44,231 bases of DNA. Origin: an uncultured Gammaproteobacteria bacterium. GTDB lineage: Bacteria > Patescibacteriota > Microgenomatia > Levybacterales > UBA12049. The notes beneath the pieces are model-generated. The model was not told the origin of the DNA and searched no databases. It worked only from the letters and a program-made list of their open reading frames with translations. A program made the translations under genes and the position numbers. The stretch is taken from NCBI GenBank assembly GCA_964457405.1, contig CAYWEP010000001.1, forward strand, positions 1-44,231. The letters are read 5' to 3'. Of the stretch, positions 1 to 44,231 are shown piece by piece; the first letter of the stretch is position 1, and each line of letters opens with the position of its first letter.

Positions 1-644
1 AGCTCTATCATCACTGAATAACCAGCAAGCCATGCACGGTGACACAAATCAGTTTCTTCAAAGTAAAACAGATAATTCGGATCAAATAATCCACCAACCT
101 CTTCAATCACCTCTCGTTTTGCTAATAGACATGCACCATACGCCGAAAAAATCTCATAAGGCTTTGAATATTTTTTCCTGACAAAATCTTTCCCGTAATC
201 TTTATGATATAAAAATCCAGTGTGTAAGAAGAAGCTCCCCACAGAATTTATTTTTTTGTGCAATGGTGTATTCGGTCTATAAAAAAGCAGGGTCGGCTGA
301 ACTATTCCCACAGACGGATTACGTTGAAGATATGAAACGAGGCCATTTAAAAAATTCTTAGTAACAATACAATCATTATTAAGAAGCAGTACATAGTCTC
401 CTTTGCTTTTTTTGTATCCCAAATTATTCGCTTCCGCAAAACCAAGTTTTCTGTTTGCCTCGACAATTAATTTTACTCGTGGAAATTTTTTCTTAATCAA
501 CTCAATAGACCCATCAGTAGATCCATTGTCAACAACAATAGTTTCGTACAGTTGAAATGAAATAACATTCAATGAATTCAAACATTCTTCGAGATCTTTT
601 TTACCATTGAAATTGACGATTATTATCGATACAAGTGGACTCAT
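1..644 (-). CDS. Glycosyltransferase family 2 (N-terminal 214 codons; C-terminus runs off the left window edge)
   Basis: Not in the ORF track because the window edge truncates it. My minus-strand translation from ATG 644..642 reads MSPLVSIIIVNFNGKKDLEECLNSLNVISFQLYETIVVDNGSTDGSIELIKKKFP... and ends ...YFEETDLCHRAWLAGYSVMIEL. 'VVDNGSTDGS' and 'EETDLCxRA' are classic GT2 (rhamnosyltransferase-like) signatures. Confidence 0.8.
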   Translation of the reverse strand, partial: MSPLVSIIIVNFNGKKDLEECLNSLNVISFQLYETIVVDNGSTDGSIELIKKKFPRVKLIVEANRKLGFAEANNLGYKKSKGDYVLLLNNDCIVTKNFLNGLVSYLQRNPSVGIVQPTLLFYRPNTPLHKKINSVGSFFLHTGFLYHKDYGKDFVRKKYSKPYEIFSAYGACLLAKREVIEEVGGLFDPNYLFYFEETDLCHRAWLAGYSVMIE

Positions 645-655
645 TATGAGTAGGA

Positions 656-1585
656 TTATATCCGATGTTGCTGATACCATTCAACCGTCTTTTCTAATCC
701 TTCCCGAAGAGTAGTTCTTGCCACAAACCCAAATTCACGCTCCGCTCTTGATATATCCAATCTCCTCCTTAACTGACCATCCGGCTTCGTGGCATCCCAT
801 TGTATCTTCCCCCTATAGCCGACAAGCTTCATAATGAGATTAGCAACTTCACGAATTGTTGTTTCAATTCCTGTACCTAGATTTACGGGCTCTACCCCAT
901 CATAATTTTCCGTTGCTAATACTATGCCTTCTGCAGCATCTTCAACATATAAAAATTCACGCGTTGCATTGCCAGATCCCCATACAGTAACAAAAGGGCT
1001 CTTTTTTTCGTTTGCTTCAATAACTTTTTTAATCAATGCCGGAATTACGTGGCTCAACTCCCTACTAAAATTGTCCCTTGGGCCATAAAGATTGACGGGA
1101 AGCAGGTGAATTGCACAAGATCCATATTGCTTTCTATATGCTTCTCCTTGAACAATAAGAATTTTTTTAGCCCAGCCGTATGGAGCCGTAGTCTCTTCAG
1201 GATAGCCATCCCAAAGACTTTCTTCTTTAAACGGAATTTGAGGACTCTTCGGATACTCACAAACTGTGCCTATGCTCACAAACTTCTCAACGCCTGCTAG
1301 TCGTGCCGCCTCCATAAGCTCAACGCCCAAAATGAGATTATTGTAGAAAACTTCTCCTGCATGTTCACCTATAAAACCGATTCCCCCTATTTGTGCAGCT
1401 AAATGAATAACAATCTGAGCATCTCCTATCACTTTTCGACAAATATCCCTTTCTCTTAAGTCGTAATCTTTTGATCTTGGAACAAAAATATGCTTTACCC
1501 CGCGCTTCTTAAGTGCCCTGACAACGTATCCCCCTAAAAAACCTCCGCCTCCTGTGACAACGATTTTTTTATCTTCCAGTTTCAT
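656..1585 (-). CDS. fcl: GDP-L-fucose synthase-like SDR (GDP-4-keto-6-deoxymannose 3,5-epimerase/4-reductase family), copy 1
   Basis: 309 aa with an ATG start. It has the Rossmann motif 'VVTGGGGFLGGYV'. 'YPEETTAPYGWAKK', 'SHVIPALI', 'VWGSGNATREFLYVEDAA', 'NLGTG' and 'DATKPDGQLRRRLDISRA' align by eye with E. coli Fcl motifs (SHVIPAL / VWGSGxPxREFL / SKPDGTPRKLLD). Its ATG forms an ATGA overlap with the stop of the upstream gene. Confidence 0.85.
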   Translation of the reverse strand: MKLEDKKIVVTGGGGFLGGYVVRALKKRGVKHIFVPRSKDYDLRERDICRKVIGDAQIVIHLAAQIGGIGFIGEHAGEVFYNNLILGVELMEAARLAGVEKFVSIGTVCEYPKSPQIPFKEESLWDGYPEETTAPYGWAKKILIVQGEAYRKQYGSCAIHLLPVNLYGPRDNFSRELSHVIPALIKKVIEANEKKSPFVTVWGSGNATREFLYVEDAAEGIVLATENYDGVEPVNLGTGIETTIREVANLIMKLVGYRGKIQWDATKPDGQLRRRLDISRAEREFGFVARTTLREGLEKTVEWYQQHRI

Positions 1586-3291
1586 TTGTTCCTTTCGATA
1601 TCTTGCTTAATCGTACTTCTTACCTTTTCTGTAATATCAATAAATTTCTCGCTTCGTTTTTCCCAGGAGAATGCGATAATCTCATCTGATTTAATATCAT
1701 TCGCTCTCACCGCCGCTGCAAGCTTATCATAGTTGCGAAAATACCCAAACCCTCGTCCATCACAAAAACGATATCCCTCCTCTAATAAATGAAGCAGAAA
1801 TCGACCTTCGTAAATACATCCAGGAAACCTTTCATCTTTTTGATACCACACCATGAGTATCCTTCCAAACCCAATTTGCACAGGTAACATTTTTTCTTTT
1901 TCCTCCATACCATAATATGCACTATCGCTTTGCGTATAAAAAATTGTTCTGTGCGGAAGCTGTGGATAAGACGCTCGGATTGTTGTTAAAAACATTTTTC
2001 GCAGTGCGCTTATTTTCACTATTTTGTCTAAATATGTTCGAATTGTAAAGACGTGACTCAACAGATAAAAACTGAATAAAAAGTACACAACAATTGTAAA
2101 TATTCTATGTTTCGAAAATTTCAAAAGCAGAGAGTATACAATAATTCCCACAAGAATACTTACGCCGATACTTCCGATGTATAAAAACTTAGACTCAATA
2201 ATCGACGCAAAACCGGCATTTCCCAAAACGAAAACATAGGGAGACAGACTGAGGGGCACAAAAGCCATCGCCCATATATATGCTTCTATAGTCTGTTTTT
2301 CTCGCATAATTCTCATGCTTAACACGAGGAGACAAATTATGACTACGGTAATCACATAGGAAACAAGATCATATACTATCGACTGTGCTATGAATGGATT
2401 AGGAATTTTATCAGAAGTTAAAAATTGTGGATATGCTAATCTTACCGCTTCATTTGAGATCTGAATAAGAATCTTTTCAGGAACTAAGCTTCCGGCGAAA
2501 GACTTCATGCTCAGGGAAATTAACCGATAGGGGTATACAGAGATAGAGGGGCGGGAAAAGCCCGTCATATCAGGTGCAGGTACGGTGAAACCAAAGAAAA
2601 GAGGTATCCGGATTAGAATAAAGATAGCGATACTGGTGAGTATTCCATGGGAAAAGGTGCGCAGTAAGTTTTTCCGATCTGACTTAGTGAAGAAATAAAA
2701 TACTACCGGATAAAAAAGGAAGAGAAATATACCATTTTCGTGAAACAGAAGAGATGCGACAAGTGTAAGCATGGAGATGAAGATGTTTCTTTTTCGATGT
2801 TTATCTCGGGCAAGAAATCGCTGGAAAAATATCAAGGAGATAAGAATAAAGGCTGTGGAAATTTCATAGCTATCAGCTGCTGCAACCCACGTAACTGCCT
2901 GATGAGAAATGCTATTAACTGCAAAAAATAGTGCTGCAAACAGAGCAATTTTTCTCTTATTCAGCCAAGATTGAATAAAGTAATAAAGTAAAAATGTATT
3001 AAAAATATGTAAAGTTATACTCAAATATGCATAGGGTTCAAAAGTAGAATAAAAAAATTGATGTGTAAACCAGACGTATATTAGACCCAGAGGAGTAAAA
3101 TGAGAAAAAGCAGTCGGAGGGAAAGAAGACTGAACTATTCCTAACCATCCCTTACTTTGATAATAATTGGCTGAAGCTAATACTTCCCATTCGTCTTGTA
3201 GAAAAAATGTATCTGACAGATTCCAATAGGCAAGACCAACCGCTAAAACTATCAAGGTTAACGCCAAAAAATGAAAACGTACATTAATCAT
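1582..3291 (-). CDS. Polytopic integral membrane protein, family unassigned (putative GT-C-type glycosyltransferase or polymerase)
   Basis: The ORF track gives 1582..3393. I place the start at ATG 3291..3289 (MINVRFHFLALTLIVLAVGLAYW...). That ATG forms an ATGA overlap with the stop of the upstream methyltransferase (3288..3290), and the 34 upstream codons lie inside that gene. The protein has many hydrophobic segments, a first loop 'FFLQDEWEVLASANYYQ', and a hydrophilic C-terminal domain of about 100 aa containing Cys. Confidence 0.55.
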   Translation of the reverse strand: MINVRFHFLALTLIVLAVGLAYWNLSDTFFLQDEWEVLASANYYQSKGWLGIVQSSFPPTAFSHFTPLGLIYVWFTHQFFYSTFEPYAYLSITLHIFNTFLLYYFIQSWLNKRKIALFAALFFAVNSISHQAVTWVAAADSYEISTAFILISLIFFQRFLARDKHRKRNIFISMLTLVASLLFHENGIFLFLFYPVVFYFFTKSDRKNLLRTFSHGILTSIAIFILIRIPLFFGFTVPAPDMTGFSRPSISVYPYRLISLSMKSFAGSLVPEKILIQISNEAVRLAYPQFLTSDKIPNPFIAQSIVYDLVSYVITVVIICLLVLSMRIMREKQTIEAYIWAMAFVPLSLSPYVFVLGNAGFASIIESKFLYIGSIGVSILVGIIVYSLLLKFSKHRIFTIVVYFLFSFYLLSHVFTIRTYLDKIVKISALRKMFLTTIRASYPQLPHRTIFYTQSDSAYYGMEEKEKMLPVQIGFGRILMVWYQKDERFPGCIYEGRFLLHLLEEGYRFCDGRGFGYFRNYDKLAAAVRANDIKSDEIIAFSWEKRSEKFIDITEKVRSTIKQDIERNK

Positions 3292-4016
3292 TTTATCGCT
3301 TTTATAATTACGACTACTTTTTCTATTGGTTGCAAAAAATGAGCAAGTCTTGAAGCAAAATCTGTTCGTACAGGATATGTTGTAAAAAAACATTGAAATG
3401 ACGTACCAAATACTTCGCTGATACGTGACTTTAATCGTGGAGCAGTAAAAAATGCAATATGGGTATTCGGACTAATAGACAGTAACGGAAATCTTACACC
3501 AAACATAATATTTACTCTCGTAAGATAAAATATAACCTTGGTGATTATGTCTGATCTGTTCGTGATCTCCTCAATGAATATCGCGCCGCCGGGTCGAACA
3601 AGCCGTCGCAGTTCTTTCAGTCCCCTTAACTGGTTTTGTACGGTCTCTTGGTAGTCTCTCCCCACCAAATGGTGGAGTACATCACGGATAATCAGCACAT
3701 CAAAGGATCGGTTTGCAAACCTCGAATGAAGTAATGACCGTAGCCTAAATGATATGTTCTTCGATACAAGATGATTTCGATATTGGGGCAGAATCTCTGC
3801 ATCAGTATACGAAGCCTTGGGATAGTGTTCTTGAAGTATTCCCAAAAGTTGTCCTGCTCCTCCACCAAATTCACAAATCTTTATTTTCTTCTTGAAATTT
3901 TTCTTCCTTAACCAGTCGATAATATAAGGTATGAGCAAAGAGTCAGTCGCCTGTTTTTTTCTCACATAATGGTCTATTTGTTCCTGGAACTGCCTAACAA
4001 CTGTCGGATTCTGCAT
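3288..4016 (-). CDS. Class I SAM-dependent methyltransferase
   Basis: The ORF track start at 4022 is a TTG; the first ATG is at 4016 (MQNPTVVRQF...). Motif I is 'ICEFGGGAGQLLGIL'. 'FDVLIIRDVLHHL' and 'LVRPGGAIFIEE' are typical Methyltransf_11/12-type motifs. Confidence 0.8.
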   Translation of the reverse strand: MQNPTVVRQFQEQIDHYVRKKQATDSLLIPYIIDWLRKKNFKKKIKICEFGGGAGQLLGILQEHYPKASYTDAEILPQYRNHLVSKNISFRLRSLLHSRFANRSFDVLIIRDVLHHLVGRDYQETVQNQLRGLKELRRLVRPGGAIFIEEITNRSDIITKVIFYLTRVNIMFGVRFPLLSISPNTHIAFFTAPRLKSRISEVFGTSFQCFFTTYPVRTDFASRLAHFLQPIEKVVVIIKAIK

Positions 4017-4037
4017 AAGCAAGTATAGCGACTGTCC

Positions 4038-5063
4038 TTAATTATATAATGATTTGACTGAATCTAATATAAACATTCTTCCCATCTTATCTTTTAAAAA
4101 AGTTATAATCAAAGCATCCACAACTCCAATCGTAATAATTGGTTCCATTAGAAGAACCCAGTCTTTGTGTTTTAAAAACCGAAATAGTCCTCTAGCAGCA
4201 GCGGGAAATAACAGGTTCGCATAAATGACAAATAAAATTAGCTTTAAAACTTCACTCTTTTTATTGGAATTTAGGAAAATATATTCCGAATTCTTATAAT
4301 ATGGAAGAAAATGCATTTTAACGTTACGAACCCTCTTATCGATAAGTTGCTTCAGGCTCTTTACCGTATAATGAACGTATCCGGGATTAGGAACGTAAGC
4401 AAAATAAGGATATCCAGACCTTACACAATTTATTACAAAGTCATGATCAAAGTAATTTTTCGCTTTCCAATTTGGGGTTCTTTTTAGATATTCGACTCTG
4501 TAAAACATTCTCACCGGAGATGGAAGTTTCTCATCAAATTTGCATAAGGCATACCCTTTTCTTTTCTCGATAATTTTACTTTCCACTGTATCTAAAAGAA
4601 ATTCGAGAAAAGGATCACACATTGCAATGTTGTATGTTAGAAAACGAGCAGCCCAGTGCATGTCCGAACTTGGTTTTTCGTCGGTAAATGAAGCAATGAT
4701 TCGATTATCCGCAAGCATTGGTGATACCATATTTTTTAGAAAATCCTTTCCAGCAAGAACGATGTCTGTTTCCAAGGAAAAAATGTAATCTCCTTGTATG
4801 TTGTGTAGTCCCAAAATCCAATTTTTGTAGATATAACCCTTTGGCTGTACGAACACTCTTGCACCAAAACTTTTGGCAACCTTAACCGAATCATCTGTTG
4901 AACCGTCATCGACAAAAACAATGTCAATTTTATCTTGAGGATAATCTTGATTTTTCACTGATCCCAAACACCGCCGGACCCCTTGTGCATCGTTGAAGGC
5001 GACGAAAATGAGGGATATTTTTGGCCATTTGATTTTGGACATATCTTGTGTTTCTTTAATCAT
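4038..5063 (-). CDS. Glycosyltransferase family 2 with hydrophobic C-terminal segments
   Basis: 341 aa. 'ISLIFVAFNDAQGVRRCLGSVKNQDYPQDKIDIVFVDDGSTDDS' is a canonical GT2 N-terminus. The C-terminus 'VLKLILFVIYANLLFPAAARGLF...MEPIITIGVVDALIITFL' is hydrophobic. Its start forms an ATGA overlap with the stop of the upstream gene. Confidence 0.85.
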   Translation of the reverse strand: MIKETQDMSKIKWPKISLIFVAFNDAQGVRRCLGSVKNQDYPQDKIDIVFVDDGSTDDSVKVAKSFGARVFVQPKGYIYKNWILGLHNIQGDYIFSLETDIVLAGKDFLKNMVSPMLADNRIIASFTDEKPSSDMHWAARFLTYNIAMCDPFLEFLLDTVESKIIEKRKGYALCKFDEKLPSPVRMFYRVEYLKRTPNWKAKNYFDHDFVINCVRSGYPYFAYVPNPGYVHYTVKSLKQLIDKRVRNVKMHFLPYYKNSEYIFLNSNKKSEVLKLILFVIYANLLFPAAARGLFRFLKHKDWVLLMEPIITIGVVDALIITFLKDKMGRMFILDSVKSLYN

Positions 5064-7671: not shown

Positions 7672-7891
7672 AATATACAAAGCTAAAATCAGGCTTGAAC
7701 ATGAATGATAGTATACTGTGTTTGTTGGCTAACTTAAAGCAACACCTCGCGATCTAGAAGCGATCGAAACCCCTAATCGCCTTGATGGAACAGTAAAATT
7801 CAGTTCCTTCTGTGGATGAGATACTACTTTCTAAAAGGGGCGAATTTCAGTACAATCAGCGATGAAGAGCTAAAAGACGCTGAGTGGGCTT
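7672..7891. promoter_or_regulatory. Divergent intergenic region (220 bp) between the minus-strand operon 7671->1 and the plus-strand pair 7892->10097
   Basis: This is the only long spacer in the left half of the window. Candidate -10 hexamers are TACAAT at 7851..7856 (+, 35 nt before ATG 7892) and the palindromic AGTATACT at 7710..7717, which reads TATACT on both strands. These are pattern matches only, and the background is AT-rich. Confidence 0.25.
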
Positions 7892-11309: not shown

Positions 11310-11350
11310 ACGTTTCGAATATGTTAGTATAGCATGGTTGAAATACACAT
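11310..11350. promoter_or_regulatory. 41-bp divergent spacer with overlapping back-to-back -10-like hexamers
   Basis: The sequence TAGTATA at 11325..11331 reads TAGTAT on + (20 nt before ATG 11351) and TATACT on - (16 nt before ATG 11309). Any -35 elements would have to lie inside the opposing coding regions. Confidence 0.3.
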
Positions 11351-20753: not shown

Positions 20754-20764
20754 AGTTCTTATCT

Positions 20765-24953: not shown

Positions 24954-24962
24954 AGGCAATCA

Positions 24963-38265: not shown

Positions 38266-40335
38266 CTACTCTTTTACGACGTACACCTGAGCCGCCTTTA
38301 TCGTTCTATAACAAGGATGATCAAGAGTGAGATTAATATCGACAACCTTAGCGAGTTCTGCCGCAAAGAGAAAAAATGGCTCTCTATATATAAGTTGATC
38401 ATTATAGTCGTAACCACTGGCTGGAAAGATCCTTGGCCTAGTGAGCGTATCGCTCTCATAGAGTTGAATTATTCCTACGTGATCATTGATCTCTCTGCAT
38501 AAGAGAGGATTGTCGTTTTCAAGTTCTATCCGTAAGAGTCTTCGTGCTGTCGGCAGCGTTACTCTGACAGATAAATCTTTTTGACTTATGGTAACGCTCG
38601 AAAGTTTCTCTTCCTCCATATCTTTGTATTCCTCTTTCACGTGATCGCGATCATTTTTCCATACCTTAAGGATTGTTACGTCATCTACCGCGACTTGATA
38701 GACTGGGTCAACGAATGTTTCCAATTCCCGAAGTCTATACCTATCGAGAAAATCACTTTTATTTGTTACGGTCATAATATATTCACCCAGTCGCAGGGGG
38801 CCACTTTTGGTTCGATTCTCAAAAATTAAATCATTGCGTACCCATATATATGGTACATTGGTTTGCTGTTCATACACGAGGGCAAGTTTTGCTCCCTGTT
38901 CTGCGTGCTCGTTGATCCACACAATTCCCTGACGATACGGATTACCGAGTGTCTGCCCCCAGTCTGGAATATTATGCTCTTTGGCCCCCTTTAAACCTCC
39001 TATAAGACTATTAAAATACACCCCCTCGTTGGGGTGTATGGAAATCATTTTTAACGTTATGGGGAGAAATGAGAGTAGGGCAGCTGCTTGCAGGCCCAGT
39101 GTTAAGTTTGCTCGCTTCCTATTGCCTACTAATAAACGAAAGATCCAACTCGCCCCGATTCCTGAAAGTACCGCCATCGCCGGTATATATTCCATAATCT
39201 GACGAACCCCCCCATAAATAACTGTGTGCGGGAGCATCACGCGAACAATAGGAACAAGAAGCCACGATACTGCAAAAAGAGTAAAGTCTTTTTCTCTTTT
39301 TGTACCTTTCAAAAAAGGAAGCGCTATTCCTGCAGCGGCATAAATAAGAATAACGGGCGGGGTAGTAAACAACAGATAGTATAAAGAATATAACGAAAAG
39401 GTCGCACCAGCTGTTCTCCCCATATAGTTGTAATAAGAAATCGATAATGCAAGTAGTTTAGGCTCAAACCAAGCGGCGGGAAATGTCACAACCCAAAGAA
39501 AAACAGCAACGAAAGGAACGGCGAGAAAGGTCAGGAAGAATGCCTTGTGTGACCGCAGAATAAGAATGGCTCGGGATAATTTTTGTGGATATAAAATAAG
39601 GCATCGAGATATGAGCCATAAAAGAATGGTTGGGAGGATAAAAACAGCGTTAAATTTTGTAGCAAAAGCAGATCCAAACATGAGCGCAAAGAGCCAGACG
39701 AATTTGATTTTTTTCTGCACTACGGCTTCATACAATGCCATCATCGCAAACGAATAAAAAACAGCTTGTGGAACATCTTTGACGTTATAGTGCGACTCAG
39801 CCCAAAAAACTGGAAAAAGAGCAAGTGACAGCGAGGAAACGGCCGCGGCTATGGTATCAAAACGTCGCTTCATCCATATGTACAGTCCAGCTACCAATGC
39901 TCCAGAAACAAACACAACATAGTAGTTATACGAATGCACATCTGGCGCAACCCCCAATTTAACAAAAAAAATATTGTTAAAAAGTGCCGCCATAACATCG
40001 GAAAACGCGGGGTGCGTCCCGCGCTTTTCAATTTCCCATGTGTAGTAGAATGGGAGTGTCCTCTCCCAGTGTTGGTAGATACTTCGGCGTATGACACGAC
40101 CAGTTTGTTCATCTCTGAATTCGTAGCCAAAGTTCAGTTTATAATTTTTCAGATCTAGCTCGGGAAGTCCGGAATAATCTTGCCTTCCCGTGAAAAGAAA
40201 GCGGAAAAAAGCCTGCCCCCTCATAAAATGAGCTGGTTCATCCCAATTCACGCCATAGTTTGGTAAACTAACCAACCCCGTGACTACATATAGAATGCCA
40301 AGAATAAGTCCAAAAAAAGCCGGAAATTTTTTCAT
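38266..40335 (-). CDS. GT-C fold membrane glycosyltransferase, PMT/ArnT-like, paralog A2
   Basis: 689 aa. Motifs seen: 'YGVNWDEPAHFMRGQ', 'IYGGVRQIMEYIPAMAVLSGIGAS', 'LSFLPITLKMISIHPNEGVYFNSLIGGLKGAKE', 'LGNPYRQGIVWINEHAE' and 'ILKVWKND'. Confidence 0.7.
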   Translation of the reverse strand: MKKFPAFFGLILGILYVVTGLVSLPNYGVNWDEPAHFMRGQAFFRFLFTGRQDYSGLPELDLKNYKLNFGYEFRDEQTGRVIRRSIYQHWERTLPFYYTWEIEKRGTHPAFSDVMAALFNNIFFVKLGVAPDVHSYNYYVVFVSGALVAGLYIWMKRRFDTIAAAVSSLSLALFPVFWAESHYNVKDVPQAVFYSFAMMALYEAVVQKKIKFVWLFALMFGSAFATKFNAVFILPTILLWLISRCLILYPQKLSRAILILRSHKAFFLTFLAVPFVAVFLWVVTFPAAWFEPKLLALSISYYNYMGRTAGATFSLYSLYYLLFTTPPVILIYAAAGIALPFLKGTKREKDFTLFAVSWLLVPIVRVMLPHTVIYGGVRQIMEYIPAMAVLSGIGASWIFRLLVGNRKRANLTLGLQAAALLSFLPITLKMISIHPNEGVYFNSLIGGLKGAKEHNIPDWGQTLGNPYRQGIVWINEHAEQGAKLALVYEQQTNVPYIWVRNDLIFENRTKSGPLRLGEYIMTVTNKSDFLDRYRLRELETFVDPVYQVAVDDVTILKVWKNDRDHVKEEYKDMEEEKLSSVTISQKDLSVRVTLPTARRLLRIELENDNPLLCREINDHVGIIQLYESDTLTRPRIFPASGYDYNDQLIYREPFFLFAAELAKVVDINLTLDHPCYRTIKAAQVYVVKE

Positions 40336-40438: not shown

Positions 40439-40999
40439 ATGAAACGAATTCTTGCAAGTATTGTATTAACTTCTCTCGTTGTAGTTCCTGCCTTCGCCCA
40501 AATACCAGAGGTTCTCCCTTCTTCAGCGCCTTCCGCGATCTCCTACCAAGCACCAGACGTTACCCTTTTACCCACTCATCCACTCTATAAACTTCAACTC
40601 ATTTGGAATAGACTCTCAATACTTACTACCTCTAATCCGTCCGCGAAAGCAATGAAGTATATAACGCTCGCGGATAAAGATCTTATTGCTGCAGACAAAA
40701 TTATGGGAGGAGAAAATGATGCACTTGCACTTCACACGGCTTTTCGGGGAGAGCATTATATGACGCTACTTGTAAATACGATGAAAAACGCAGCCTACAA
40801 TTTCGGTTCACTTGACATGAGTGTCACAAAACGCGCTCACGAGGCATTTCCCTATCACCAACAGCTCATACAATCTATGATTAGTAAAGCCTCCGGAGAT
40901 ACAGAGCGAAACCTGCGAAATATTTTAGAATTCTCTCAGAGAAACGAGCAGCAAATTACTTTGCTTGAACAGGAGTATTCACTGGACGAAAACGAGTAA
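40439..40999 (+). CDS. Small secreted protein, DUF5667-like helical domain
   Basis: 186 aa. The signal peptide is 'MKRILASIVLTSLVVVPAFA/Q'. An S/P/A-rich stretch 'IPEVLPSSAPSAISYQAPD' follows. 'LLPTHPLYKLQLIWNRLSILTTSNPSAKAMKYITLADKDLIAA' matches my recollection of the DUF5667 N-terminal pattern (LP.sPlY.lK...e.....ft.np..Ka......A..RL.E). This is recalled, not searched. Confidence 0.5.
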   Translation: MKRILASIVLTSLVVVPAFAQIPEVLPSSAPSAISYQAPDVTLLPTHPLYKLQLIWNRLSILTTSNPSAKAMKYITLADKDLIAADKIMGGENDALALHTAFRGEHYMTLLVNTMKNAAYNFGSLDMSVTKRAHEAFPYHQQLIQSMISKASGDTERNLRNILEFSQRNEQQITLLEQEYSLDENE

Positions 41000-41009: not shown

Positions 41010-42979
41010 TTATTCCTCACGAATCGCATAAACAGCCGCGGCCTGTATTGTTTTGTAACAAGGATGATCCACAGCAACGTTGAAGACGATAATTTTTGCC
41101 TCTTCTGCTGCAAAAAGAAACGATGGCTTCGTATAGGTAATTCTGTCATTAAAATCATAGCTACTGGCTCGCAGTGCTCGTGGTTTGCCACCCTTTTCTT
41201 TGTATAAGTGAAAGCTGCCAACCACGTCATTAAATTCTTCACACAACGTTGGATCTGCATTTGCAAATTCTATCCGGAGAAGTTTACGGACGTTGGGAAG
41301 CGTAACAGTAATTGATTGATCTTGTTTGAGAAAGTGAACATCAGCAACTTTTTCTTCTTTCATATCTTTATATTCATCTTTTACGTGTTGCAAGTCGTTT
41401 TTCCAAATCTTGAGAAGTGATACACCATCGACTTCGACCTGGTATACGGGATTGAGGAAGGTATCCATGATTTTGAACCGATACCAGTCAAGAAAATCAC
41501 TTGTGTTGGTCACCGACATGACATACTCTCCTTGACGTAAAGGTCCACTTTTAAGACGGCTATCGTAATAAATATCCTTACGAACCCAAATGTGTGGAAG
41601 ATTTGCCCAAAGTTCAAAATCAAGGGAAAGCGTTGCGTTTGGCTCCGCGTTTTTGTTGAGCCATATGATACCTTGTCTATGGGGATTACCGAGTGTCTGC
41701 CCCCAATCTTTAATGTTTTTTTCCTTTGCGCCTTTGAGTCCACCAATGAGCGAGTTAAAATACACTCCTTCGTTGGGATGAAGCCTAACTAGCGTGATTA
41801 CCAAGGGAATAAATGAGAGGAGGATCAATGCTTTTGGCACTCTGATAAGCTTGCTGGCTCCGATACCTGCGAGGATTGCAAGGGCGGGAATGTACTCCAT
41901 TATTTGGCGAACCCCTCCATAAATAGCTGTTCCCGGGAACATCACGCGTGTTATCGGCACCAAAAACCAAAATACCGCGAGAAGAAGCGCATCCTTTTCT
42001 TTCTTATGGATTTTTAAAAAAGCACTCGCGACGGCAATAGCGGAAAAAATAAGTATTACAGGAGGTGTCGTAAACAAAAGATACGTCAGTGGATAAGTCC
42101 AATCATTGCCAACAGGTGACGTACCAATCGATTTATAATATGAAAACGATGCAAGCAGTAATTTGGGCTCAAACCATGACGCCGGAAAGGTAATAATCCA
42201 AAATAGCACCATTGCAAATGGAATGAGAAGAAATGAAAAATGAAGAGGAGGACGTTTTCTTGTTACAACAAGCCACAGAATAATGGTGGGAATGACAAAA
42301 AGAAAATTGAATTTGGTTGCAAATGCCATGCCCGCCAATATTGCGGACATCCATATATACTTTTTTTCTCTTGTCATCACCGCTTCATAAAAGGAAAAAA
42401 GAAAGAGAGAATAAAAGACGGCTTCGGGAATGTCTTTAACATTGTTATGTGATTCCGCCCAGAAAATAGGAAATAATCCGAGAGAAAACGCGCTCACAAG
42501 CACAGCGAAACTTCCAAATGTTTTTCTCACCCAGAGATACGTCACAGCCACTAAAATCGCTGCTACAAAGATCACATAGTAATTGTAAGAAAAAACATCC
42601 GGAGCAATACCGAGTTTGACAAACAATACGTAGTTAAAAAGGGCAGACAATACATCGGAGAATGCAGGATGTGTACCTCTTTTTGCAACGTCTTCTGTGT
42701 AATACAGAAGTCCCCCCTCCCGGTGCTGGTAGATGCTATGGCGAGTCGTTTTGCCTGTTTGTGGATCGGTAAATTCATATCCCCAATCCTGCTTGTAGCT
42801 TTTTAGGTCGATTGCAAGAGGATCAGAGTGCTTTTCCCCTCAAGAAGAAAGCGCAAGAATGCCTGACCACGCATAAAGTGCGCTGGCTCATCCCAATTAA
42901 TTCCGTAATGCTTAATAGTAAACATGCCGAAGGTGAAATACAGAAGAAATAATAGAATAGGAATCTTGAGGGCTTTCAT
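41010..42979 (-). pseudogene. PMT/ArnT-like GT-C glycosyltransferase paralog A3, interrupted by a 1-nt frameshift
   Basis: The track ORF 41010..42650 begins at residue 105 or so of the A2 alignment. My translation from ATG 42979 gives MKALKIPILLFLLYFTFGMFTIKHYGINWDEPAHFMRGQAFLRFLLEG, which then runs out of frame to a TAA at 42803..42805. The -1 frame, open from 42839 downward, continues EKHSDPLAIDLKSYKQDWGYEFTDPQTGKTTRHSIYQHREGGLLYYTEDVAKRGTHPAFSDVLSALFNYVLF... into the 546-aa ORF. This is collinear with A2. The frame switch maps to the GGGGAAAA run (plus strand ttttcccc, 42832..42839). Confidence 0.7.
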
Positions 42980-43007
42980 GGTGTATAATTTATTGTACCA
43001 TTTTCAT
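42980..43007. promoter_or_regulatory. 28-bp divergent spacer with -10-like hexamers on both strands
   Basis: A perfect TATAAT at 42984..42989 (+) lies 18 nt before ATG 43008. TACAAT on the minus strand lies 12 nt before ATG 42979. There is no room for -35 elements outside coding sequence. Confidence 0.3.
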
Positions 43008-44066
43008 ATGACTGACATTAAGCAAATTGTCTTCCTGACGCGCCCCATTGCTCCTCCCTGGGATGAGGCAAGTAAGAACCTTGCATACTATCTTGCTCTC
43101 CACGTACAAATTCCATCTATTCAATGTATTCTATTGACCACACAAACAAAACTCGCGCTCCCTTCAAACATAATACAAGAGTCAATTCATACGACAAAAG
43201 CATTAAACCTGAAGAGCAAATTTCGCCTGCTTTGGTACCTCATCAGAAGCGATATAGATTGTGTTCATGCTCTTTTTGTCTTTACCCCAATAACCGGCAT
43301 GATCATAAAAATGCTTAAATTATGGAAACGATTCAAAGTAATTCAGACAGTGGCTTCAATATCCAGAAATACTTACTTTCTTCATTTCACTGTATTTGGA
43401 GATGAAGTCGTCTGTTTTTCAAAAACGACGGCTGCACTACTAAAAAGTCTTGGAGTTCAGCCTCATGTTATCCCCCCAGCGGTTTCCCTTGAACGTTTTA
43501 AGCCTAGCAAAAAAAACAAAAGCATTGCATTCTTAGGAGAATTACATAGGCAGAATAGTTATGCTATTGTTGAGCCACTTATAGATTTACTACACAAAAA
43601 ACTGCCTGACTATCAAATACTTTTGGGTTTTCGAACAACAAGAAAACCACGCAAAGAAGGCGAGCTCGTGATGAAACTCAAGCGAAAATTGACTGGTGTT
43701 AAAAATATTGTGTTTATGGATATCATCGAAGACATGCCGACGGTTTTAGCAAAAACAACACTTGTTATTCTCCCCGCTCGCAGCGTGACAGAAAAATTCG
43801 ATTATCCCCTGGTACTCTTGGAAGCACTCGCCTGTGGCACTCCTATTGTCATTTCAAACATTGGACCCCTTGGAGAACTTTCTTCGTATCCGGGGGTGTT
43901 GACACCAAAAAGTAATACTCCTCAGGCATTTTTAGATACAATAATCCGATCACTTACGTCCTACCCAAAACTCTCAAAGTCTGCACGAACGACTGCTGAA
44001 GTCAATTTTAACATTGAAGCTATTTCAAAAAAATATGAAGCTCTCTACAAAAAAGTACTCATCTAA
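43008..44066 (+). CDS. GT-B fold glycosyltransferase (GT4/GT1-like)
   Basis: The ORF track starts at 42924, overlapping the divergent gene. I place the start at ATG 43008 (MTDIKQIVFLTRPIAPPWDEASKN...). 'SIAFLGELHRQNSY' and 'EKFDYPLVLLEALACGTPIVISNIGPLGEL' form the GT-B C-domain motif. Confidence 0.75.
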   Translation: MTDIKQIVFLTRPIAPPWDEASKNLAYYLALHVQIPSIQCILLTTQTKLALPSNIIQESIHTTKALNLKSKFRLLWYLIRSDIDCVHALFVFTPITGMIIKMLKLWKRFKVIQTVASISRNTYFLHFTVFGDEVVCFSKTTAALLKSLGVQPHVIPPAVSLERFKPSKKNKSIAFLGELHRQNSYAIVEPLIDLLHKKLPDYQILLGFRTTRKPRKEGELVMKLKRKLTGVKNIVFMDIIEDMPTVLAKTTLVILPARSVTEKFDYPLVLLEALACGTPIVISNIGPLGELSSYPGVLTPKSNTPQAFLDTIIRSLTSYPKLSKSARTTAEVNFNIEAISKKYEALYKKVLI

Positions 44067-44097
44067 ATTTTTACTTGCAGCAAAACTTCAAAACATT

Positions 44098-44231
44098 ATG
44101 TTGTCTCATGGTGTGGAAGTTATGTTTATGAAGATGTACTCTAATGATCTCGATATTGATATGGTTGTTATTCATCTTAAGACCTATCAAGTCGCCATGA
44201 GTGCCCTGCAACAAAATGGTTGGCGTATGAA
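44098..44231 (+). CDS. Partial ORF at the right window edge; possibly the start of an uncharacterised nucleotidyltransferase-like (NTP_transf_5-like) protein
   Basis: My translation from ATG 44098 reads MLSHGVEVMFMKMYSNDLDIDMVVIHLKTYQVAMSALQQNGWRM... The 'DIDxxV' and 'A...L...G(W/Y)' spacing is reminiscent of that family. Only 44 codons are visible and the start is uncertain. Confidence 0.25.
   Translation, partial: MLSHGVEVMFMKMYSNDLDIDMVVIHLKTYQVAMSALQQNGWRM

What the first reader, a model, noticed from the sequence alone, without database searches (positions are those of the whole stretch)
1..44231. A glycosylation super-locus of about 40 genes built on lipid-P-sugar synthases plus seven GT-C-like membrane proteins, with no classical export or initiation machinery
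Every recognisable gene in the window is glycan-related. There are 8 GT2, 3 GT-B, 7 large polytopic membrane proteins, 10 methyltransferases, a carbamoyltransferase, 5 SDRs, a dehydrogenase, 2 aminotransferases, a cupin and an AKR.

No ORF looks like a Wzx flippase, an ABC exporter (no Walker A/B ATPase), a WecA/WbaP-type initiating phosphoglycosyltransferase, a chain-length regulator or an O-antigen ligase. At least five GT2s instead have the Dpm1/GtrB/ArnC layout, and they sit beside GT-C-like membrane proteins.

In known systems this is the logic of extracytoplasmic decoration: Gtr O-antigen glucosylation, ArnC/ArnT, protein O-mannosylation, and YfhO/CsbB teichoic-acid glycosylation. Seven such transferases concentrated in one locus, combined with very heavy methylation capacity, is unusual. 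It suggests a multi-step periplasmic or surface glycan-decoration system acting on a protein or polymer acceptor.
Basis: partly seen in the sequence, partly recalled or inferred. Interest (0 to 1): 0.7.

Follow-up and report, generated by a model that had tools for sequence, protein, structure and literature searches.

The report
Surface-glycan assembly island with seven GT-C enzymes
This 44-kb stretch, probably from an uncultured ultra-small bacterium (Levybacteria), is filled with genes that modify sugars, load them onto a membrane lipid and attach them outside the cell with seven large membrane enzymes, four of which belong to families no database recognises.

Summary
The window is about 98% coding.

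All seven membrane proteins are GT-C-fold. Three pass Pfam PMT_2. The other four form two related families with no Pfam or NCBIfam model. Confident AlphaFold models of two of them match only GT-C enzymes (STT3/PglB/AglB, ALG9/12, ArnT, Pmt, Emb/Aft), not Wzy, WaaL or Wzx.

One GT2 is a full-length ArnC/GtrB type, two are clearly Dpm1/PpgS-like, two plausibly so, and three are generic.

The window holds no phosphoglycosyltransferase, flippase, ABC transporter, Wzy, Wzz or ligase. Syntenic loci in other Levybacteria and Microgenomates extend to at least 44–70 kb. Several of the more distant ones carry Wzx/MOP-type flippases next to these GT-Cs, and 15 kb of this contig could not be seen. "No export machinery" is therefore true of the window, not shown for the system.

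Best reading: a modular island for extracytoplasmic glycan assembly from polyprenyl-phosphate sugars via GT-C enzymes. This is known logic at unusual scale, with new GT-C families. The acceptor is unknown.

The parts
1..644 (-). g00, GT2 glycosyltransferase (N-terminal 214 aa; runs off the window)
   Evidence: Translation. 72% identical to the L002 345-aa GT2 carrying PF00535/PF13632.
656..1585 (-). g01, SDR, GDP-fucose-synthase-like 3,5-epimerase/4-reductase type
   Evidence: PF01370 at 1e-50. NF047922 Fcl 262 bits, below its cut-off.
1582..3291 (-). g02, GT-C-fold glycosyltransferase, family C (569 aa; invariant QQDEW after TM1)
   Evidence: No Pfam or NCBIfam hit. AF2 model pLDDT 90.5, pTM 0.90. 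Foldseek hits are AglB/STT3/PglB/Pmt4/ArnT/ALG9/12 at prob 1.00. Invariant D33 E34 W35.
3288..4022 (-). g03, class I SAM methyltransferase
   Evidence: PF13489/PF08241.
4038..5063 (-). g04, GT2 with two C-terminal TM helices (generic by similarity)
   Evidence: PF00535. TM helices at 272-321. PDB hits are generic GT2. This GT2 type flanks family-C GT-Cs in 23 of 42 cases.
5060..6871 (-). g05, NodU/CmcH-type O-carbamoyltransferase
   Evidence: PF02543 plus PF16861. NodU 119 bits.
6883..7680 (-). g06, MTS-type methyltransferase
   Evidence: PF05175.
7892..9073 (+). g07, GT4 (GT-B) glycosyltransferase
   Evidence: PF00534/PF13692.
9132..10097 (+). g08, SDR, GDP-fucose-synthase-like
   Evidence: PF01370. 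Fcl 289 bits.
10491..11363 (-). g09, methyltransferase
   Evidence: PF08241 at 1.6e-22.
11351..12457 (+). g10, DegT/PseC/ArnB-family sugar aminotransferase
   Evidence: PF01041 at 7e-112. PseC 231 bits, ArnB 220 bits.
12454..13362 (+). g11, methyltransferase
   Evidence: PF13489 at 4e-27.
13373..14125 (+). g12, short soluble GT2, Dpm1/PpgS/AglJ-like putative polyprenyl-phosphate glycosyltransferase
   Evidence: AglJ 7e-20 and PpgS 2e-18, both full-length. Best PDB hits are DPMS 5mlz and ArnC. No TM helix.
14139..15662 (+). g13, GT-C-fold glycosyltransferase, family B (507 aa)
   Evidence: 29% identical over its full length to g19 and g18. Member of alignment A1. No Pfam hit.
15603..16493 (-). 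g14, methyltransferase with a C-terminal hydrophobic helix
   Evidence: PF13489. TM helix at 256-284.
16522..17508 (+). g15, aldo/keto reductase
   Evidence: PF00248 at 4e-61.
17489..18565 (-). g16, NanM-type putative sugar O-methyltransferase
   Evidence: TIGR04371 132 bits, above its cut-off of 44.
18581..19282 (-). g17, short soluble GT2, Dpm1/AglJ-like putative polyprenyl-phosphate glycosyltransferase
   Evidence: AglJ 1e-15 and Dol-P-hexose transferase 5e-10. Best PDB hits are DPMS and ArnC.
19284..20786 (-). g18, GT-C-fold glycosyltransferase, family B (500 aa)
   Evidence: 32% identical over its full length to g19. RSDGF motif.
20765..22255 (-). g19, GT-C-fold glycosyltransferase, family B (496 aa; RGDGF after TM1)
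   Evidence: AF2 model pLDDT 88, pTM 0.90. Foldseek hits are STT3/PglB/ALG12/DPY19/Pmt4/EmbC at prob 1.00. No Pfam family in 43 members. Only 239 relatives among 1.84e9 representatives.
22255..23307 (-). g20, SDR (NDP-sugar ketoreductase/dehydratase type)
   Evidence: PF01370..
23304..24545 (-). g21, NDP-hexose C-methyltransferase type
   Evidence: PF08421 plus PF08484.
24561..24959 (-). g22, small cupin (candidate NDP-ketosugar isomerase/epimerase)
   Evidence: PF07883, 29 bits. The functional role is inferred.
24963..26078 (-). g23, dTDP-glucose 4,6-dehydratase (RmlB)
   Evidence: TIGR01181 431 bits, above its cut-off of 365.
26018..26743 (-). g24, short soluble GT2, possibly Dpm1-like
   Evidence: PF00535. 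AglJ positions 3-196 at 3e-7. 57% identical to g25.
26759..27487 (-). g25, short soluble GT2, possibly Dpm1-like
   Evidence: The only full-length PDB match is DPMS 5mlz, residues 13-233.
27458..28231 (+). g26, methyltransferase
   Evidence: PF08241/PF00891.
28200..29054 (-). g27, GT2 with a C-terminal TM helix (generic by similarity)
   Evidence: PF00535. TM helix at 245-263. Best PDB hit is chondroitin synthase.
29051..30319 (-). g28, NDP-sugar 6-dehydrogenase
   Evidence: TIGR03026 347 bits, above its cut-off of 190. Closest equivalogs are UDP-ManNAc DH and TviB.
30327..31316 (-). g29, SDR (dehydratase/decarboxylase/epimerase type)
   Evidence: PF16363/PF01370. UXS and ArnA-C about 83 bits, below cut-off.
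31387..32295 (+). g30, ArnC/GtrB/PgfS-type polyprenyl-phosphate glycosyltransferase with two C-terminal TM helices. The ORF extends to 31156; the probable start is M78.
   Evidence: ArnC NF007986 1.5e-47, covering positions 6-295 of 316. PgfS 2e-33.
32286..33485 (-). g31, DegT-family aminotransferase (ArnB/PseC-like)
   Evidence: PF01041 at 7.5e-129. ArnB 359 bits, PseC 355 bits.
33482..34201 (-). g32, methyltransferase
   Evidence: PF08241.
34198..34980 (-). g33, methyltransferase with a C-terminal hydrophobic helix
   Evidence: PF08241. TM helix at 212-230.
34973..36196 (-). g34, GT4 glycosyltransferase
   Evidence: PF00534 at 2.7e-40.
36202..38250 (-). g35, GT-C glycosyltransferase, family A (PMT_2/GT39-83-like; NWDE after TM1; about 250-aa C-terminal extracytoplasmic domain)
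   Evidence: PF13231 36.6 bits, above its cut-off of 26.1. 41% identical to g36.
38266..40335 (-). g36, GT-C glycosyltransferase, family A
   Evidence: PF13231 35.7 bits. Homologues are named 'glycosyltransferase family 39 protein' or 'Ara4N transferase-like'.
40439..40999 (+). g37, 186-aa signal-anchored protein of unknown function, conserved between the PMT_2 genes
   Evidence: 74% identical to its L004 orthologue. Weak DUF5667, E 0.04.
41010..42979 (-). g38, GT-C family A paralogue of g36 with one frameshift (546-aa ORF at 41010-42650 plus an out-of-frame N-terminus)
   Evidence: PF13231 42.7 bits. 55% identical to g36. Frameshift shown.
42924..44066 (+). g39, GT4 glycosyltransferase (true start probably at 42978 or 43008)
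   Evidence: PF13692/PF00534. Overlap with the g38 N-terminus.
44098..44231 (+). Partial ORF of unknown function, running off the window
   Evidence: Translation. In the closest relative an NTP_transf_5 gene lies at this position, two genes from the PMT_2 gene (L004). No significant similarity was obtained.

Best explanation
The window is the core of a conserved, modular cell-envelope glycan island of a Levybacteria-like bacterium (Microgenomates, Candidate Phyla Radiation). The proposed mechanism has four stages.

1. Cytoplasmic enzymes tailor nucleotide sugars. RmlB, a cupin, a C-methyltransferase and a reductase would make a C-methylated 6-deoxyhexose. An NDP-sugar dehydrogenase, an SDR and a DegT aminotransferase would make a uronic or amino sugar. 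Fcl-like reductases, about ten SAM methyltransferases and a carbamoyltransferase add further modifications.

2. Dpm1/ArnC-type GT2 enzymes load single tailored sugars onto polyprenyl phosphate. These are g30, g12 and g17, probably g24 and g25, and possibly the membrane-anchored g04 and g27.

3. The lipid-P-sugars are flipped by a flippase that is not encoded in the window.

4. Seven GT-C enzymes of three families each transfer a sugar, outside the membrane, to a growing envelope glycan. The three GT4 and three generic GT2 enzymes most likely build a lipid-linked primer or backbone in the cytoplasm.

Shown: the gene inventory; the GT-C fold with a conserved acidic motif after TM1; the ArnC/Dpm1 similarity; the conserved GT2/GT-C pairing and synteny; and the absence of PGT, flippase and ABC genes in the window.

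Inferred: the donors, the sugar identities, the order of steps, the acceptor (glycopolymer or lipoglycan favoured over protein), and the location of the flippase and initiating enzyme elsewhere in the genome.
For: - **Inventory:**
- **GT-C fold, family A:** g35, g36 and g38 pass the Pfam PMT_2 gathering score.
- **GT-C fold, families B and C:** the g19 and g02 models (pLDDT 88 and 90.5, pTM 0.90) match only GT-C enzymes at Foldseek prob 1.00 with TM 0.40-0.49. Transporters score TM 0.10-0.15 and MurJ prob 0.09.
- **Family relationships:** families B and C are homologous (hhalign 99.5%, E 1e-22). g13 and g18 are full-length paralogues of g19.
- **Catalytic motif:** an acidic motif follows TM1 and is invariant in each family: NWDE, RGDGF (E in g13) and QQDEW. 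This is where GT-C enzymes carry their catalytic Asp/Glu (established knowledge).
- **GT2 synthases:** g30 matches ArnC over its full length (1.5e-47) and has two C-terminal TM helices. The best solved relatives of g12 and g17 are Dol-P-Man synthase and ArnC.
- **Soluble synthases and flippases have precedent:** soluble GT-A synthases that work with a separate membrane protein, Wzx-type donor flippases, and one shared flippase encoded elsewhere are all described (PMC8035078; PMC11127046).
- **Conserved pairing:** a Dpm1-like GT2 lies within two genes of family-B GT-Cs in 5 of 7 cases. A TM-anchored GT2 and a methyltransferase lie next to family-C GT-Cs in 23 and 22 of 42 cases.
- **Synteny:** orthologues are 57-86% identical in Levybacteria contigs, and those loci continue beyond both window edges with more GT-C, GT2, GT4 and methyltransferase genes.
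- **No rival machinery in the window:**
Against: - No flippase of any type (GtrA, SMR or MOP) is in the window, so a defining component of every known system of this kind is missing here.
- No biochemical evidence exists for any donor or acceptor.
- g24 and g25 are only weakly Dpm1-like. g04, g27 and g00 are generic GT2s.
- Six Leloir glycosyltransferases and the Wzx-type flippases in related loci fit a conventional Und-PP-oligosaccharide stage equally well.
- 15 kb of the window's own contig and the rest of the genome were not visible.
- TM-scores of 0.4-0.5 show a shared fold, not a shared function.
- g38 may be a pseudogene.
Confidence: 0.7

Rival explanations
1. This is an ordinary, if large, Wzx/Wzy-type or ABC-type surface polysaccharide cluster. 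A phosphoglycosyltransferase, flippase or exporter and polymerase lie just outside the window. The GT-C/GT2 pairs are only side-chain decoration cassettes, as in Gtr seroconversion.
For: - The window contains six cytoplasmic Leloir glycosyltransferases.
- Polysacc_synt (Wzx/MOP) proteins sit inside homologous loci of more distant relatives, directly beside g02-family GT-Cs: L007 505 aa, L006 428 aa, L014 441 aa, L020 423 aa, and a 439-aa L008 protein 60% identical to the L014 one.
- 15 kb of the 59-kb source contig are unseen.
Against: - No Wzy, Wzz, ligase, PGT or ABC component was found in any of the roughly 44 kb (closest relative) or roughly 54 kb (more distant relative) of annotated syntenic DNA.
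- GT-Cs outnumber every other transferase class: 7 here, and 9 in 44 kb of the closest relative. This is the opposite of a backbone cluster with one decoration cassette.
- Wzx-type flippases are also used for lipid-P-monosaccharide donors (PMC8035078, PMC11127046). Their presence does not establish a Und-PP repeat-unit route.
Confidence: 0.15
2. The acceptors are proteins (S-layer, pilins, or Ser/Thr-rich envelope proteins). The island is then a protein O-glycosylation system in which PMT-like GT-Cs start and extend O-glycans from polyprenyl-P-sugars. Comparable systems are actinobacterial Ppm1/Pmt, the S. mutans Pgf operon and streptococcal GtrB/PgtC2.
For: - g35, g36 and g38 hit the PMT_2 model and carry the DE motif.
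- g30 matches PgfS at 2e-33.
- The top fold matches include the protein-modifying enzymes STT3/PglB/AglB, DPY19 and Pmt4.
- Extracytoplasmic protein glycosylation by GtrB plus a GT-C is documented in streptococci (PMC12041528).
- A conserved secreted protein, g37, with a Ser/Pro-rich stretch after its signal anchor, lies among the PMT_2 genes.
Against: - There is no MIR domain, no WWDYG-type oligosaccharyltransferase motif and no large OST-like periplasmic domain. The C-terminal domains of g19 and g02 are about 75-120 aa.
- PMT_2 also covers ArnT-like lipid and glycan modifiers.
- Some family-A homologues carry F5/8-type-C carbohydrate-binding domains, which hints at glycan acceptors.
- Seven transferases and heavy sugar tailoring suggest a long heteroglycan.
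- Nothing identifies a target protein.
Confidence: 0.25
3. The window is not one system. It is an aggregation of several independent synthase/GT-C modification cassettes plus unrelated sugar-nucleotide genes. Each acts on a different envelope target, and they are merely co-located in a variable genomic island.
For: - There are at least 14 transcription units on alternating strands.
- Cassettes come and go between relatives. g11-g13, g15 and g16 have no orthologues in the closest relative.
- L. lactis uses three separate GT-A/GT-C pairs for three different polymers (PMC8035078).
- The 23-32 kb block has a different G+C content.
Against: - The same gene kinds stay clustered over 44-70 kb in several lineages, from Levybacteria to Gottesmanbacteria.
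- Such clustering is unusual for functionally unrelated cassettes in streamlined genomes of about 1 Mb. One Gottesmanbacteria contig of 1.02 Mb is seen; the typical genome size is my own inference.
Confidence: 0.2

Closest known systems
Three-component / multi-component transmembrane glycosylation systems (GtrA/GtrB/Gtr*; CsbB/GtcA/YfhO; GacI-J/GacK/GacL; Citrobacter ORF15/14/12)
   Same: A GT-A-fold polyprenyl-phosphate sugar synthase is paired with a polytopic GT-C transferase that acts outside the membrane. Synthase and GT-C genes are adjacent (g12-g13, g17-g18). Soluble synthases and Wzx-type donor flippases have precedent (PMC8035078, PMC11127046).
   Different: Known systems are single cassettes that add one side-chain sugar to a polymer made by another pathway. 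Here seven GT-Cs (nine or more in a relative) and up to seven candidate synthases are packed together with extensive sugar tailoring. No flippase is in the window, and no backbone pathway is identifiable.
Arn pathway for lipid A modification (Ugd, ArnA, ArnB, ArnC, ArnD, ArnT, ArnE/F)
   Same: The block g28-g36 has the same logic: an NDP-sugar dehydrogenase, an SDR, an ArnC-like GT2 (best NCBIfam hit), an ArnB-like DegT aminotransferase (best hit) and ArnT/PMT_2-type GT-Cs.
   Different: All scores are far below the equivalog cut-offs. The dehydrogenase is closer to UDP-ManNAc/GlcNAc dehydrogenases. There is no formyltransferase, no ArnD deformylase and no ArnE/F. Two methyltransferases and a GT4 are inserted. 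The presumed host has no lipid A (inference: Candidate Phyla Radiation bacteria are thought to have a single membrane).
Mycobacterial/corynebacterial lipomannan, lipoarabinomannan and arabinogalactan assembly (Ppm1, PimE, MptA/B/C, EmbA-C, AftA-D)
   Same: A cytoplasmic GT4 stage is followed by stepwise extracytoplasmic elongation by many GT-Cs using polyprenyl-P-monosaccharide donors. Emb/Aft enzymes are among the fold matches. An MptA_B_family protein occurs in a related locus.
   Different: There is no sequence-level membership of the Emb, Aft or Mpt families. The mycobacterial genes are dispersed rather than in one island. Here the donors appear to be methylated, aminated, carbamoylated or deoxy sugars rather than Man or Araf.
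Eukaryotic/archaeal lipid-linked oligosaccharide assembly (Alg1/2/11 GT4s, Dpm1/Alg5, Rft1, ALG3/9/12/6/8/10, STT3/AglB)
   Same: The parts list is the same: GT4s, Dpm1-like synthases, a MOP-type flippase (in relatives) and several GT-Cs. The best structural matches of g02 and g19 are STT3/PglB/AglB and ALG12/ALG9.
   Different: The similarity is at fold level only (10-13% identity). There is no WWDYG or OST-type domain, and no evidence of en-bloc transfer to protein.
Protein O-mannosyltransferases (GT39 PMT) and the S. mutans Pgf system
   Same: g35, g36 and g38 pass PMT_2 and have the DE motif in loop 1. g30 resembles PgfS.
   Different: There are no MIR domains. The C-terminal domain is unrelated. 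The acceptor is unknown.

Membership tests
GT-C fold glycosyltransferase superfamily (seven membrane proteins) | Polytopic membrane protein with roughly 8-13 TM helices | tested here: met
   7-11 hydrophobic segments in each protein. The AF2 models are all-helical membrane bundles with a small C-terminal domain.
GT-C fold glycosyltransferase superfamily (seven membrane proteins) | Structural similarity to solved GT-C enzymes and not to other membrane folds | tested here: met
   For g19 and g02, every Foldseek hit at prob 1.00 is a GT-C enzyme. Transporters score prob 0.28 or less with TM 0.15 or less. g13 and g18 qualify by 29-32% full-length identity to g19. g35, g36 and g38 qualify by Pfam PMT_2 above the gathering score and were not modelled.
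GT-C fold glycosyltransferase superfamily (seven membrane proteins) | Conserved acidic residue(s) in the first extracytoplasmic loop | tested here: met
   NWDE (family A), RGDGF or QWES (family B) and QQDEW (family C) lie directly after TM1. They are invariant or at least 90% conserved in 43-sequence alignments.
GT-C fold glycosyltransferase superfamily (seven membrane proteins) | Uses a lipid-phosphate-linked sugar donor | not testable with these tools
   Requires biochemistry.
Three-component (multi-component) extracytoplasmic glycosylation system | GT-A-fold polyprenyl-phosphate sugar synthase | tested here: met
   g30 is a full-length ArnC/PgfS type with two TM helices. g12 and g17 are closest to DPMS, ArnC, PpgS and AglJ. 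g24 and g25 are only plausible.
Three-component (multi-component) extracytoplasmic glycosylation system | Flippase for the lipid-P-sugar (GtrA, SMR or Wzx/MOP type) | tested here: not met
   None was found in the window by Pfam or NCBIfam on all ORFs, by a small-ORF scan, or by tblastn. Wzx-type proteins are present in related loci. The rest of the genome was not visible.
Three-component (multi-component) extracytoplasmic glycosylation system | GT-C transferase genetically linked to the synthase | tested here: met
   g12-g13 and g17-g18 are adjacent on the same strand. The pairing recurs in relatives in 5 of 7 cases.
Wzx/Wzy-dependent O-antigen or capsule cluster | Initiating phosphoglycosyltransferase (WecA/MraY or WbaP/Bac_transf type) | tested here: not met
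   No PF00953 or PF02397 hit in the window, nor among the annotated genes of L001-L007.
Wzx/Wzy-dependent O-antigen or capsule cluster | Wzx flippase | tested here: not met
   Absent from the window and from 44 kb of the closest relative. Present in more distant relatives.
Wzx/Wzy-dependent O-antigen or capsule cluster | Wzy polymerase, chain-length regulator, ligase | tested here: not met
   There are no Wzy_C or Wzz hits. The unassigned membrane proteins are GT-C, not Wzy or WaaL. One 418-aa, 10-TM protein in L004 remains unassigned.
ABC-transporter-dependent polysaccharide cluster | ABC ATPase and ABC-2 permease | tested here: not met
   There is no ABC_tran or ABC2_membrane hit, no LSGGQ motif and no in-frame Walker A in a plausible ATPase.
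Arn (L-Ara4N) pathway | Equivalog-level ArnA, ArnB, ArnC and ArnT, plus ArnD and ArnE/F | tested here: not met
   ArnC 162 bits against a cut-off of 529. ArnB 359 against 631. ArnA 82 against 777. No deformylase, formyltransferase or ArnE/F.
GT39 protein O-mannosyltransferase (PMT) | PMT/PMT_2 membrane domain with a loop-1 DE motif | tested here: met
   PF13231 at 36-43 bits, and an NWDE motif.
GT39 protein O-mannosyltransferase (PMT) | Luminal MIR domain between TM helices; PMT_4TMC C-terminal module | tested here: not met
   No MIR or PMT_4TMC hit at E up to 0.01. These proteins instead have an unassigned C-terminal domain of about 250 aa.
Oligosaccharyltransferase (STT3/PglB/AglB) | Large C-terminal periplasmic domain with a WWDYG motif | tested here: not met
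   g19 and g02 have C-terminal domains of 75-120 aa and no WWD motif in their sequences.

The most novel reading that the evidence does not exclude
The GT-Cs are not decorators but the main assembly line. In these ultra-small bacteria, a complex heteroglycan would be built largely outside the cytoplasm, one tailored sugar at a time. Seven to nine or more GT-C enzymes would do this, each fed by its own polyprenyl-P-(methyl/amino/carbamoyl/deoxy)sugar synthase. This would be a bacterial counterpart of the lumenal ALG stage of eukaryotic LLO assembly or of mycobacterial LAM synthesis. It would use two GT-C families (B and C) that no database models yet, and it would occupy several per cent of a roughly 1-Mb genome.
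Probability: 0.25. Interest if true: 0.8.

Novelty: new variant of a known kind. Interest (0 to 1): 0.55.

Why it matters
Candidate Phyla Radiation bacteria are thought to live attached to other cells, and almost nothing is known about their surface chemistry. I found no paper on their GT-C loci in the searchable library.

A conserved island of 44-70 kb or more suggests that the surface glycan is central to their biology, for example in host attachment or in evading phages and predators. The island is devoted to lipid-phosphate-sugar/GT-C glycosylation, with heavy methylation, C-methylation, amination and carbamoylation.

The island also supplies two GT-C families without any Pfam or NCBIfam model. 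Family B has only 239 cluster representatives among 1.84 billion. These give concrete candidates for new CAZy families and for glyco-engineering enzymes that handle unusual sugars.

If the GT-Cs turn out to be the principal assembly route, this would extend the mycobacterial and ER-lumenal mode of glycan synthesis to a third, deeply branching lineage.

Tried and rejected
- **Retrieving the window's own 59-kb contig.** Exact-protein look-ups for g01, g37 and P0051 found nothing. Exact 52-mer scans of genome and metagenome contigs also found nothing. The flanks could only be inferred from relatives.
- **Sequence-only comparison with solved structures.** g19, g02 and g36 as single sequences, and A1 and A2 as profiles, gave no hits. 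The fold had to be established by modelling.
- **Linking family A to families B and C.** hhalign of family A (three sequences) against B and C was not significant. The link is fold-level only, plus two distant family-C homologues and one weak family-B homologue that hit PMT_2.
- **Hypothesis that g28-g36 is a true Arn (Ara4N) operon.** Rejected as membership, because scores are far below cut-offs and ArnD, ArnE/F and the formyltransferase are missing. Kept as an analogy.
- **Hypothesis that the G+C-rich 23-32 kb block is a recent foreign insertion.** Not supported. Orthologue identity to the closest relative (58-82%) does not drop there.
- **Idea that g04 and g27 are GtrB-like by sequence.** Rejected. 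Their solved relatives are generic GT2s. Only their architecture and conserved neighbourhood suggest a synthase role.
- **Identifying unknown membrane proteins in related loci.** The targets were a 418-aa 10-TM protein in L004, proteins of 1000-1150 aa, and small 4-5-TM proteins of 120-137 aa. Pfam and hhalign gave nothing usable.
- **Literature searches for CPR or Levybacteria GT-C glycosylation.** Nothing relevant was found.

Full report
**1. Observation**

The window is 44,231 bp with 36-50% G+C and no tRNA genes. It is about 98% coding, with 39 complete ORFs and two partial ones.

- 8 GT2: g00 partial, g04, g12, g17, g24, g25, g27, g30.
- 3 GT4: g07, g34, g39.
- 7 polytopic membrane proteins: g02, g13, g18, g19, g35, g36, g38.
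- 10 methyltransferases. These include a NanM-type sugar O-methyltransferase above its curated cut-off (g16) and an NDP-hexose C-methyltransferase type (g21).
- A NodU-type carbamoyltransferase (g05).
- 5 SDRs. g23 passes the dTDP-glucose 4,6-dehydratase equivalog cut-off. g01 and g08 are GDP-fucose-synthase-like.
- An NDP-sugar dehydrogenase (g28), two DegT aminotransferases (g10, g31), a cupin (g22) and an aldo-keto reductase (g15).
- Only g37 (186 aa, signal-anchored) and the last 134 bases are unassigned.

No ORF hits any model for Wzx/MOP flippases, GtrA, ABC transporters, phosphoglycosyltransferases, Wzy, Wzz or O-antigen ligase. There is no ABC signature and no in-frame Walker A in a plausible ATPase. 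No hidden small ORFs exist. tblastn with flippases taken from related loci finds nothing.

One of the seven membrane genes, g38, has a frameshift. Its N-terminal 50 residues (MKALK...HYGINWDEPAHF...) are present upstream in another frame.

**2. The seven membrane proteins**

BLASTP sorts the seven proteins into three families.

- **Family A (g35, g36, g38):** 36-55% mutual identity. All pass the Pfam PMT_2 gathering score at 36-43 bits against a cut-off of 26.1. Public homologues are named 'glycosyltransferase family 39 protein' or 'Ara4N-transferase-like'.
- **Family B (g13, g18, g19):** 29-32% mutual identity. No Pfam or NCBIfam hit.
- **Family C (g02):** no Pfam or NCBIfam hit.

Scans of 43 homologues of each of families B and C gave little. 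Family C had two PMT_2 hits, and family B had one weak hit at E 0.005. Sequence and profile searches against PDB sequences found nothing. Families B and C are homologous to each other over the whole membrane domain (hhalign 99.5%, E 1e-22).

AlphaFold2 models built on 43-sequence alignments are confident. g19 has pLDDT 88.1 and pTM 0.90. g02 has pLDDT 90.5 and pTM 0.90. Against the PDB, every hit at Foldseek probability 1.00 is a GT-C enzyme. The hits are STT3/PglB/AglB, ALG12, ALG9, DPY19, Pmt4, Pmt1/2, ArnT, EmbC and AftA/B, with TM-scores of 0.40-0.49. Transporters score TM 0.10-0.15 at probability 0.28 or less, and MurJ scores 0.09. No Wzy, WaaL or SEDS protein appears.

Each family has an invariant acidic motif directly after TM1: NWDE in A, RGDGF in B (QWES in g13) and QQDEW in C. 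This is the position of the catalytic Asp/Glu in loop 1 of GT-C enzymes (established knowledge).

All seven are therefore GT-C-fold.

Family B is rare. A profile search of 1.84 billion cluster representatives finds only 239 relatives.

**3. The GT2 enzymes**

- **g30:** matches ArnC over its full length (1.5e-47, positions 6-295 of 316) and PgfS (2e-33). It has the two C-terminal TM helices of GtrB/ArnC enzymes. Its real start is probably M78, because the longer ORF overlaps g29.
- **g12 and g17:** 233-250 aa with no TM helix. They match AglJ, PpgS and Dol-P-hexose transferase over their full length. Their best solved relatives are Pyrococcus Dol-P-Man synthase and ArnC.
- **g24 and g25:** 57% identical to each other. 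They are mostly generic, but the only full-length solved match of g25 is Dol-P-Man synthase.
- **g04 and g27:** C-terminal TM helices are present, but similarity is to generic GT2s such as chondroitin synthase and TarP-like enzymes.

Soluble GT-A synthases that work with a separate membrane protein are known, for example GacI/GacJ (PMC8035078).

For g04 and g27 it rests only on architecture and on conserved neighbourhood.

**4. Surroundings and relatives**

The window's own proteins are recorded on a 59,379-bp contig. That contig could not be retrieved.

The closest relatives are Levybacteria.

- A Candidatus Levybacteria metagenome-assembled genome carries g02 at 72% identity.
- Its contig (L002) is syntenic with window 1-10 kb. 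It continues past the window's left edge with a methyltransferase, a second family-C GT-C, a GT2, a C-methyltransferase, a methyltransferase, an SDR and a GT2.
- An 85-kb contig (L001 plus L004) is syntenic with window 11-44 kb at 57-82% protein identity.
- It continues past the right edge with NTP_transf_5, a thymidylate-kinase-like gene, a 735-aa PMT, a GT4, a 435-aa PMT_2, a GT4 and a GT2.
- That gives nine GT-Cs in 44 kb, with no PGT, flippase or ABC gene.

A more distant 135-kb contig (L005-L007) has the same gene kinds spread over at least 70 kb. It includes two Polysacc_synt (Wzx/MOP) proteins, one directly beside a family-C GT-C. It also has MptA_B-family and PTPS_related membrane proteins.

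Family-C homologues in species-representative genomes come from Levy-, Gottesman-, Shapiro- and Daviesbacteria and from other Patescibacteria. In several of these a 420-440-aa Polysacc_synt protein lies next to the GT-C.

Neighbourhood counts over 30 loci support functional pairing:

- A Dpm1-like GT2 lies within two genes of family-B GT-Cs in 5 of 7 cases.
- A TM-anchored GT2 and a methyltransferase lie beside family-C GT-Cs in 23 and 22 of 42 cases.

Cassettes differ between relatives. g11-g13, g15 and g16 have no orthologues in the closest relative. This is expected for a variable surface-glycan locus.

**5. Mechanism**

The best-supported model has two stages.

*Cytoplasmic stage.*
- Nucleotide sugars are tailored. 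One route is g23-g22-g21-g20: dTDP-glucose to a 4-keto-6-deoxy intermediate, then C-methylation and reduction.
- A second route is g28-g29-g31: oxidation to a uronic acid, possible decarboxylation or epimerisation, then 4-amination.
- Fcl-like reductases, a second aminotransferase, about ten SAM methyltransferases and a carbamoyltransferase add further modifications.
- The methyltransferases and the carbamoyltransferase need cytoplasmic cofactors. Modification must therefore happen before export, on nucleotide-linked or lipid-linked sugars. Two methyltransferases (g14, g33) carry C-terminal hydrophobic helices.
- Dpm1/ArnC-type GT2s then load single sugars onto polyprenyl phosphate.

*Extracytoplasmic stage.*
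- After flipping, the seven GT-Cs transfer the sugars to an acceptor outside the membrane.
- The three GT4 and three generic GT2 enzymes probably assemble a lipid-linked primer or backbone.

The flippase is not in the window. In known systems one flippase can serve several synthase/GT-C pairs and be encoded elsewhere, as with L. lactis CflA. Wzx/MATE-type proteins can also flip lipid-P-monosaccharide donors, as with GacK and Citrobacter ORF14 (PMC8035078, PMC11127046). The Wzx-like genes in relatives are therefore compatible with either a donor flippase or a Und-PP-oligosaccharide flippase.

The fold, motifs, similarities, synteny and absences are shown. The donors, sugar identities, order of steps and acceptor are inferred.

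**6. Comparison with known systems**

- **Three-component systems.** The logic matches these systems, but a defining component, the flippase, was tested and not found in the window. The scale also differs. Known systems are single cassettes that decorate a polymer made by another pathway.
- **Arn pathway.** The g28-g36 block resembles the Arn pathway in gene order and best hits. It fails equivalog thresholds and lacks ArnD, ArnE/F and the formyltransferase.
- **Multi-GT-C assembly lines.** The closest functional analogies are mycobacterial LM/LAM/arabinogalactan synthesis and the ER-lumenal ALG stage of N-glycan precursor assembly. Similarity to both is at fold level only.
- **PMT and OST membership.** Family A meets the PMT_2 model and DE motif but lacks MIR domains. 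Families B and C lack the OST periplasmic domain and the WWDYG motif.

**7. Verdict**

The lipid-P-sugar/GT-C logic is well supported, and the GT-C assignment is now firm for all seven proteins. 'No export or initiation machinery' holds only for the window. Homologous loci in more distant relatives do contain Wzx-type flippases, and 15 kb of this contig plus the rest of the genome are unseen. The Leloir transferases argue for a cytoplasmic stage as well.

This is a new variant of a known kind: an unusually large, modular, methylation-rich array of polyprenyl-P-sugar/GT-C modules. It is conserved in Microgenomates and includes two GT-C families without database models. I found no description of such loci in the searchable literature.

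Interest is moderate to high for glycobiology and for the biology of Candidate Phyla Radiation bacteria. It is limited by the absence of any functional or acceptor evidence.

Noticed in passing
window 41010-42979 (-), frameshift near 42.75 kb: g38, a 55%-identical paralogue of g36, is split by one frameshift. Its N-terminus, including TM1 and the NWDE motif, is in another frame. The reconstructed gene overlaps the long-ORF start of g39, whose real start is probably 42978 or 43008. This is either a pseudogene or an assembly error.
   Followed up: partly
window 23300-32300: Genes g21-g30 have 45-50% G+C, against 36-43% in the rest of the window. The syntenic block in the closest relative (L001) is flat at 40-43.5%. 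Orthologue identity (58-82%) does not drop there, so a simple recent foreign insertion is not supported. The cause is unexplained.
   Followed up: partly
window 12454-15662 and 16522-18565: g11-g13 (methyltransferase, Dpm1-like GT2, family-B GT-C), g15 (AKR) and g16 (NanM-type O-methyltransferase) have no orthologues in the closest relative's syntenic region. This suggests cassette gain or loss, as in serotype-variable glycan loci.
   Followed up: partly
window 15603-16493 (g14) and 34198-34980 (g33): Two SAM methyltransferases end in hydrophobic helices. This suggests membrane anchoring and possibly action on lipid-linked sugars.
   Followed up: no
window 40439-40999 (g37); L004 12764-13321; L006 6847-7512: A 186-aa signal-anchored protein with a Ser/Pro-rich stretch after the anchor is conserved (74% identity) between the PMT_2 genes. 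It has a weak DUF5667 similarity, and its L006 homologue has a recorded DUF5667 hit. It could be an accessory factor or an acceptor.
   Followed up: partly
L008 17770-21126; L012 18117-21467; L023 3048-6485 and 6478-6840; L029 72-3518 and 3515-3913: Many related loci carry a 1000-1150-aa protein with 9-12 TM helices and no Pfam family. It is often followed by a 120-137-aa protein with 4-5 TM helices. By synteny with L002, L007 and L008, such a gene may lie just left of the window. These could be further Emb/AftD-sized GT-Cs with GtrA-like partners.
   Followed up: partly
L008 2621-5825: A CDP-alcohol phosphatidyltransferase and a 795-aa protein with a PEP-utilising/PPDK_N domain sit inside a related Levybacteria glycan locus. 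This hints at phospho-alcohol (teichoic-acid-like) substituents in some relatives.
   Followed up: no
L011, L015, L020, L024-L026, L030, L031 (record titles): Several genome records that carry family-C GT-C loci typical of Microgenomates are titled 'uncultured Gammaproteobacteria bacterium' (third-party-annotated assemblies). They are probably mislabelled.
   Followed up: no
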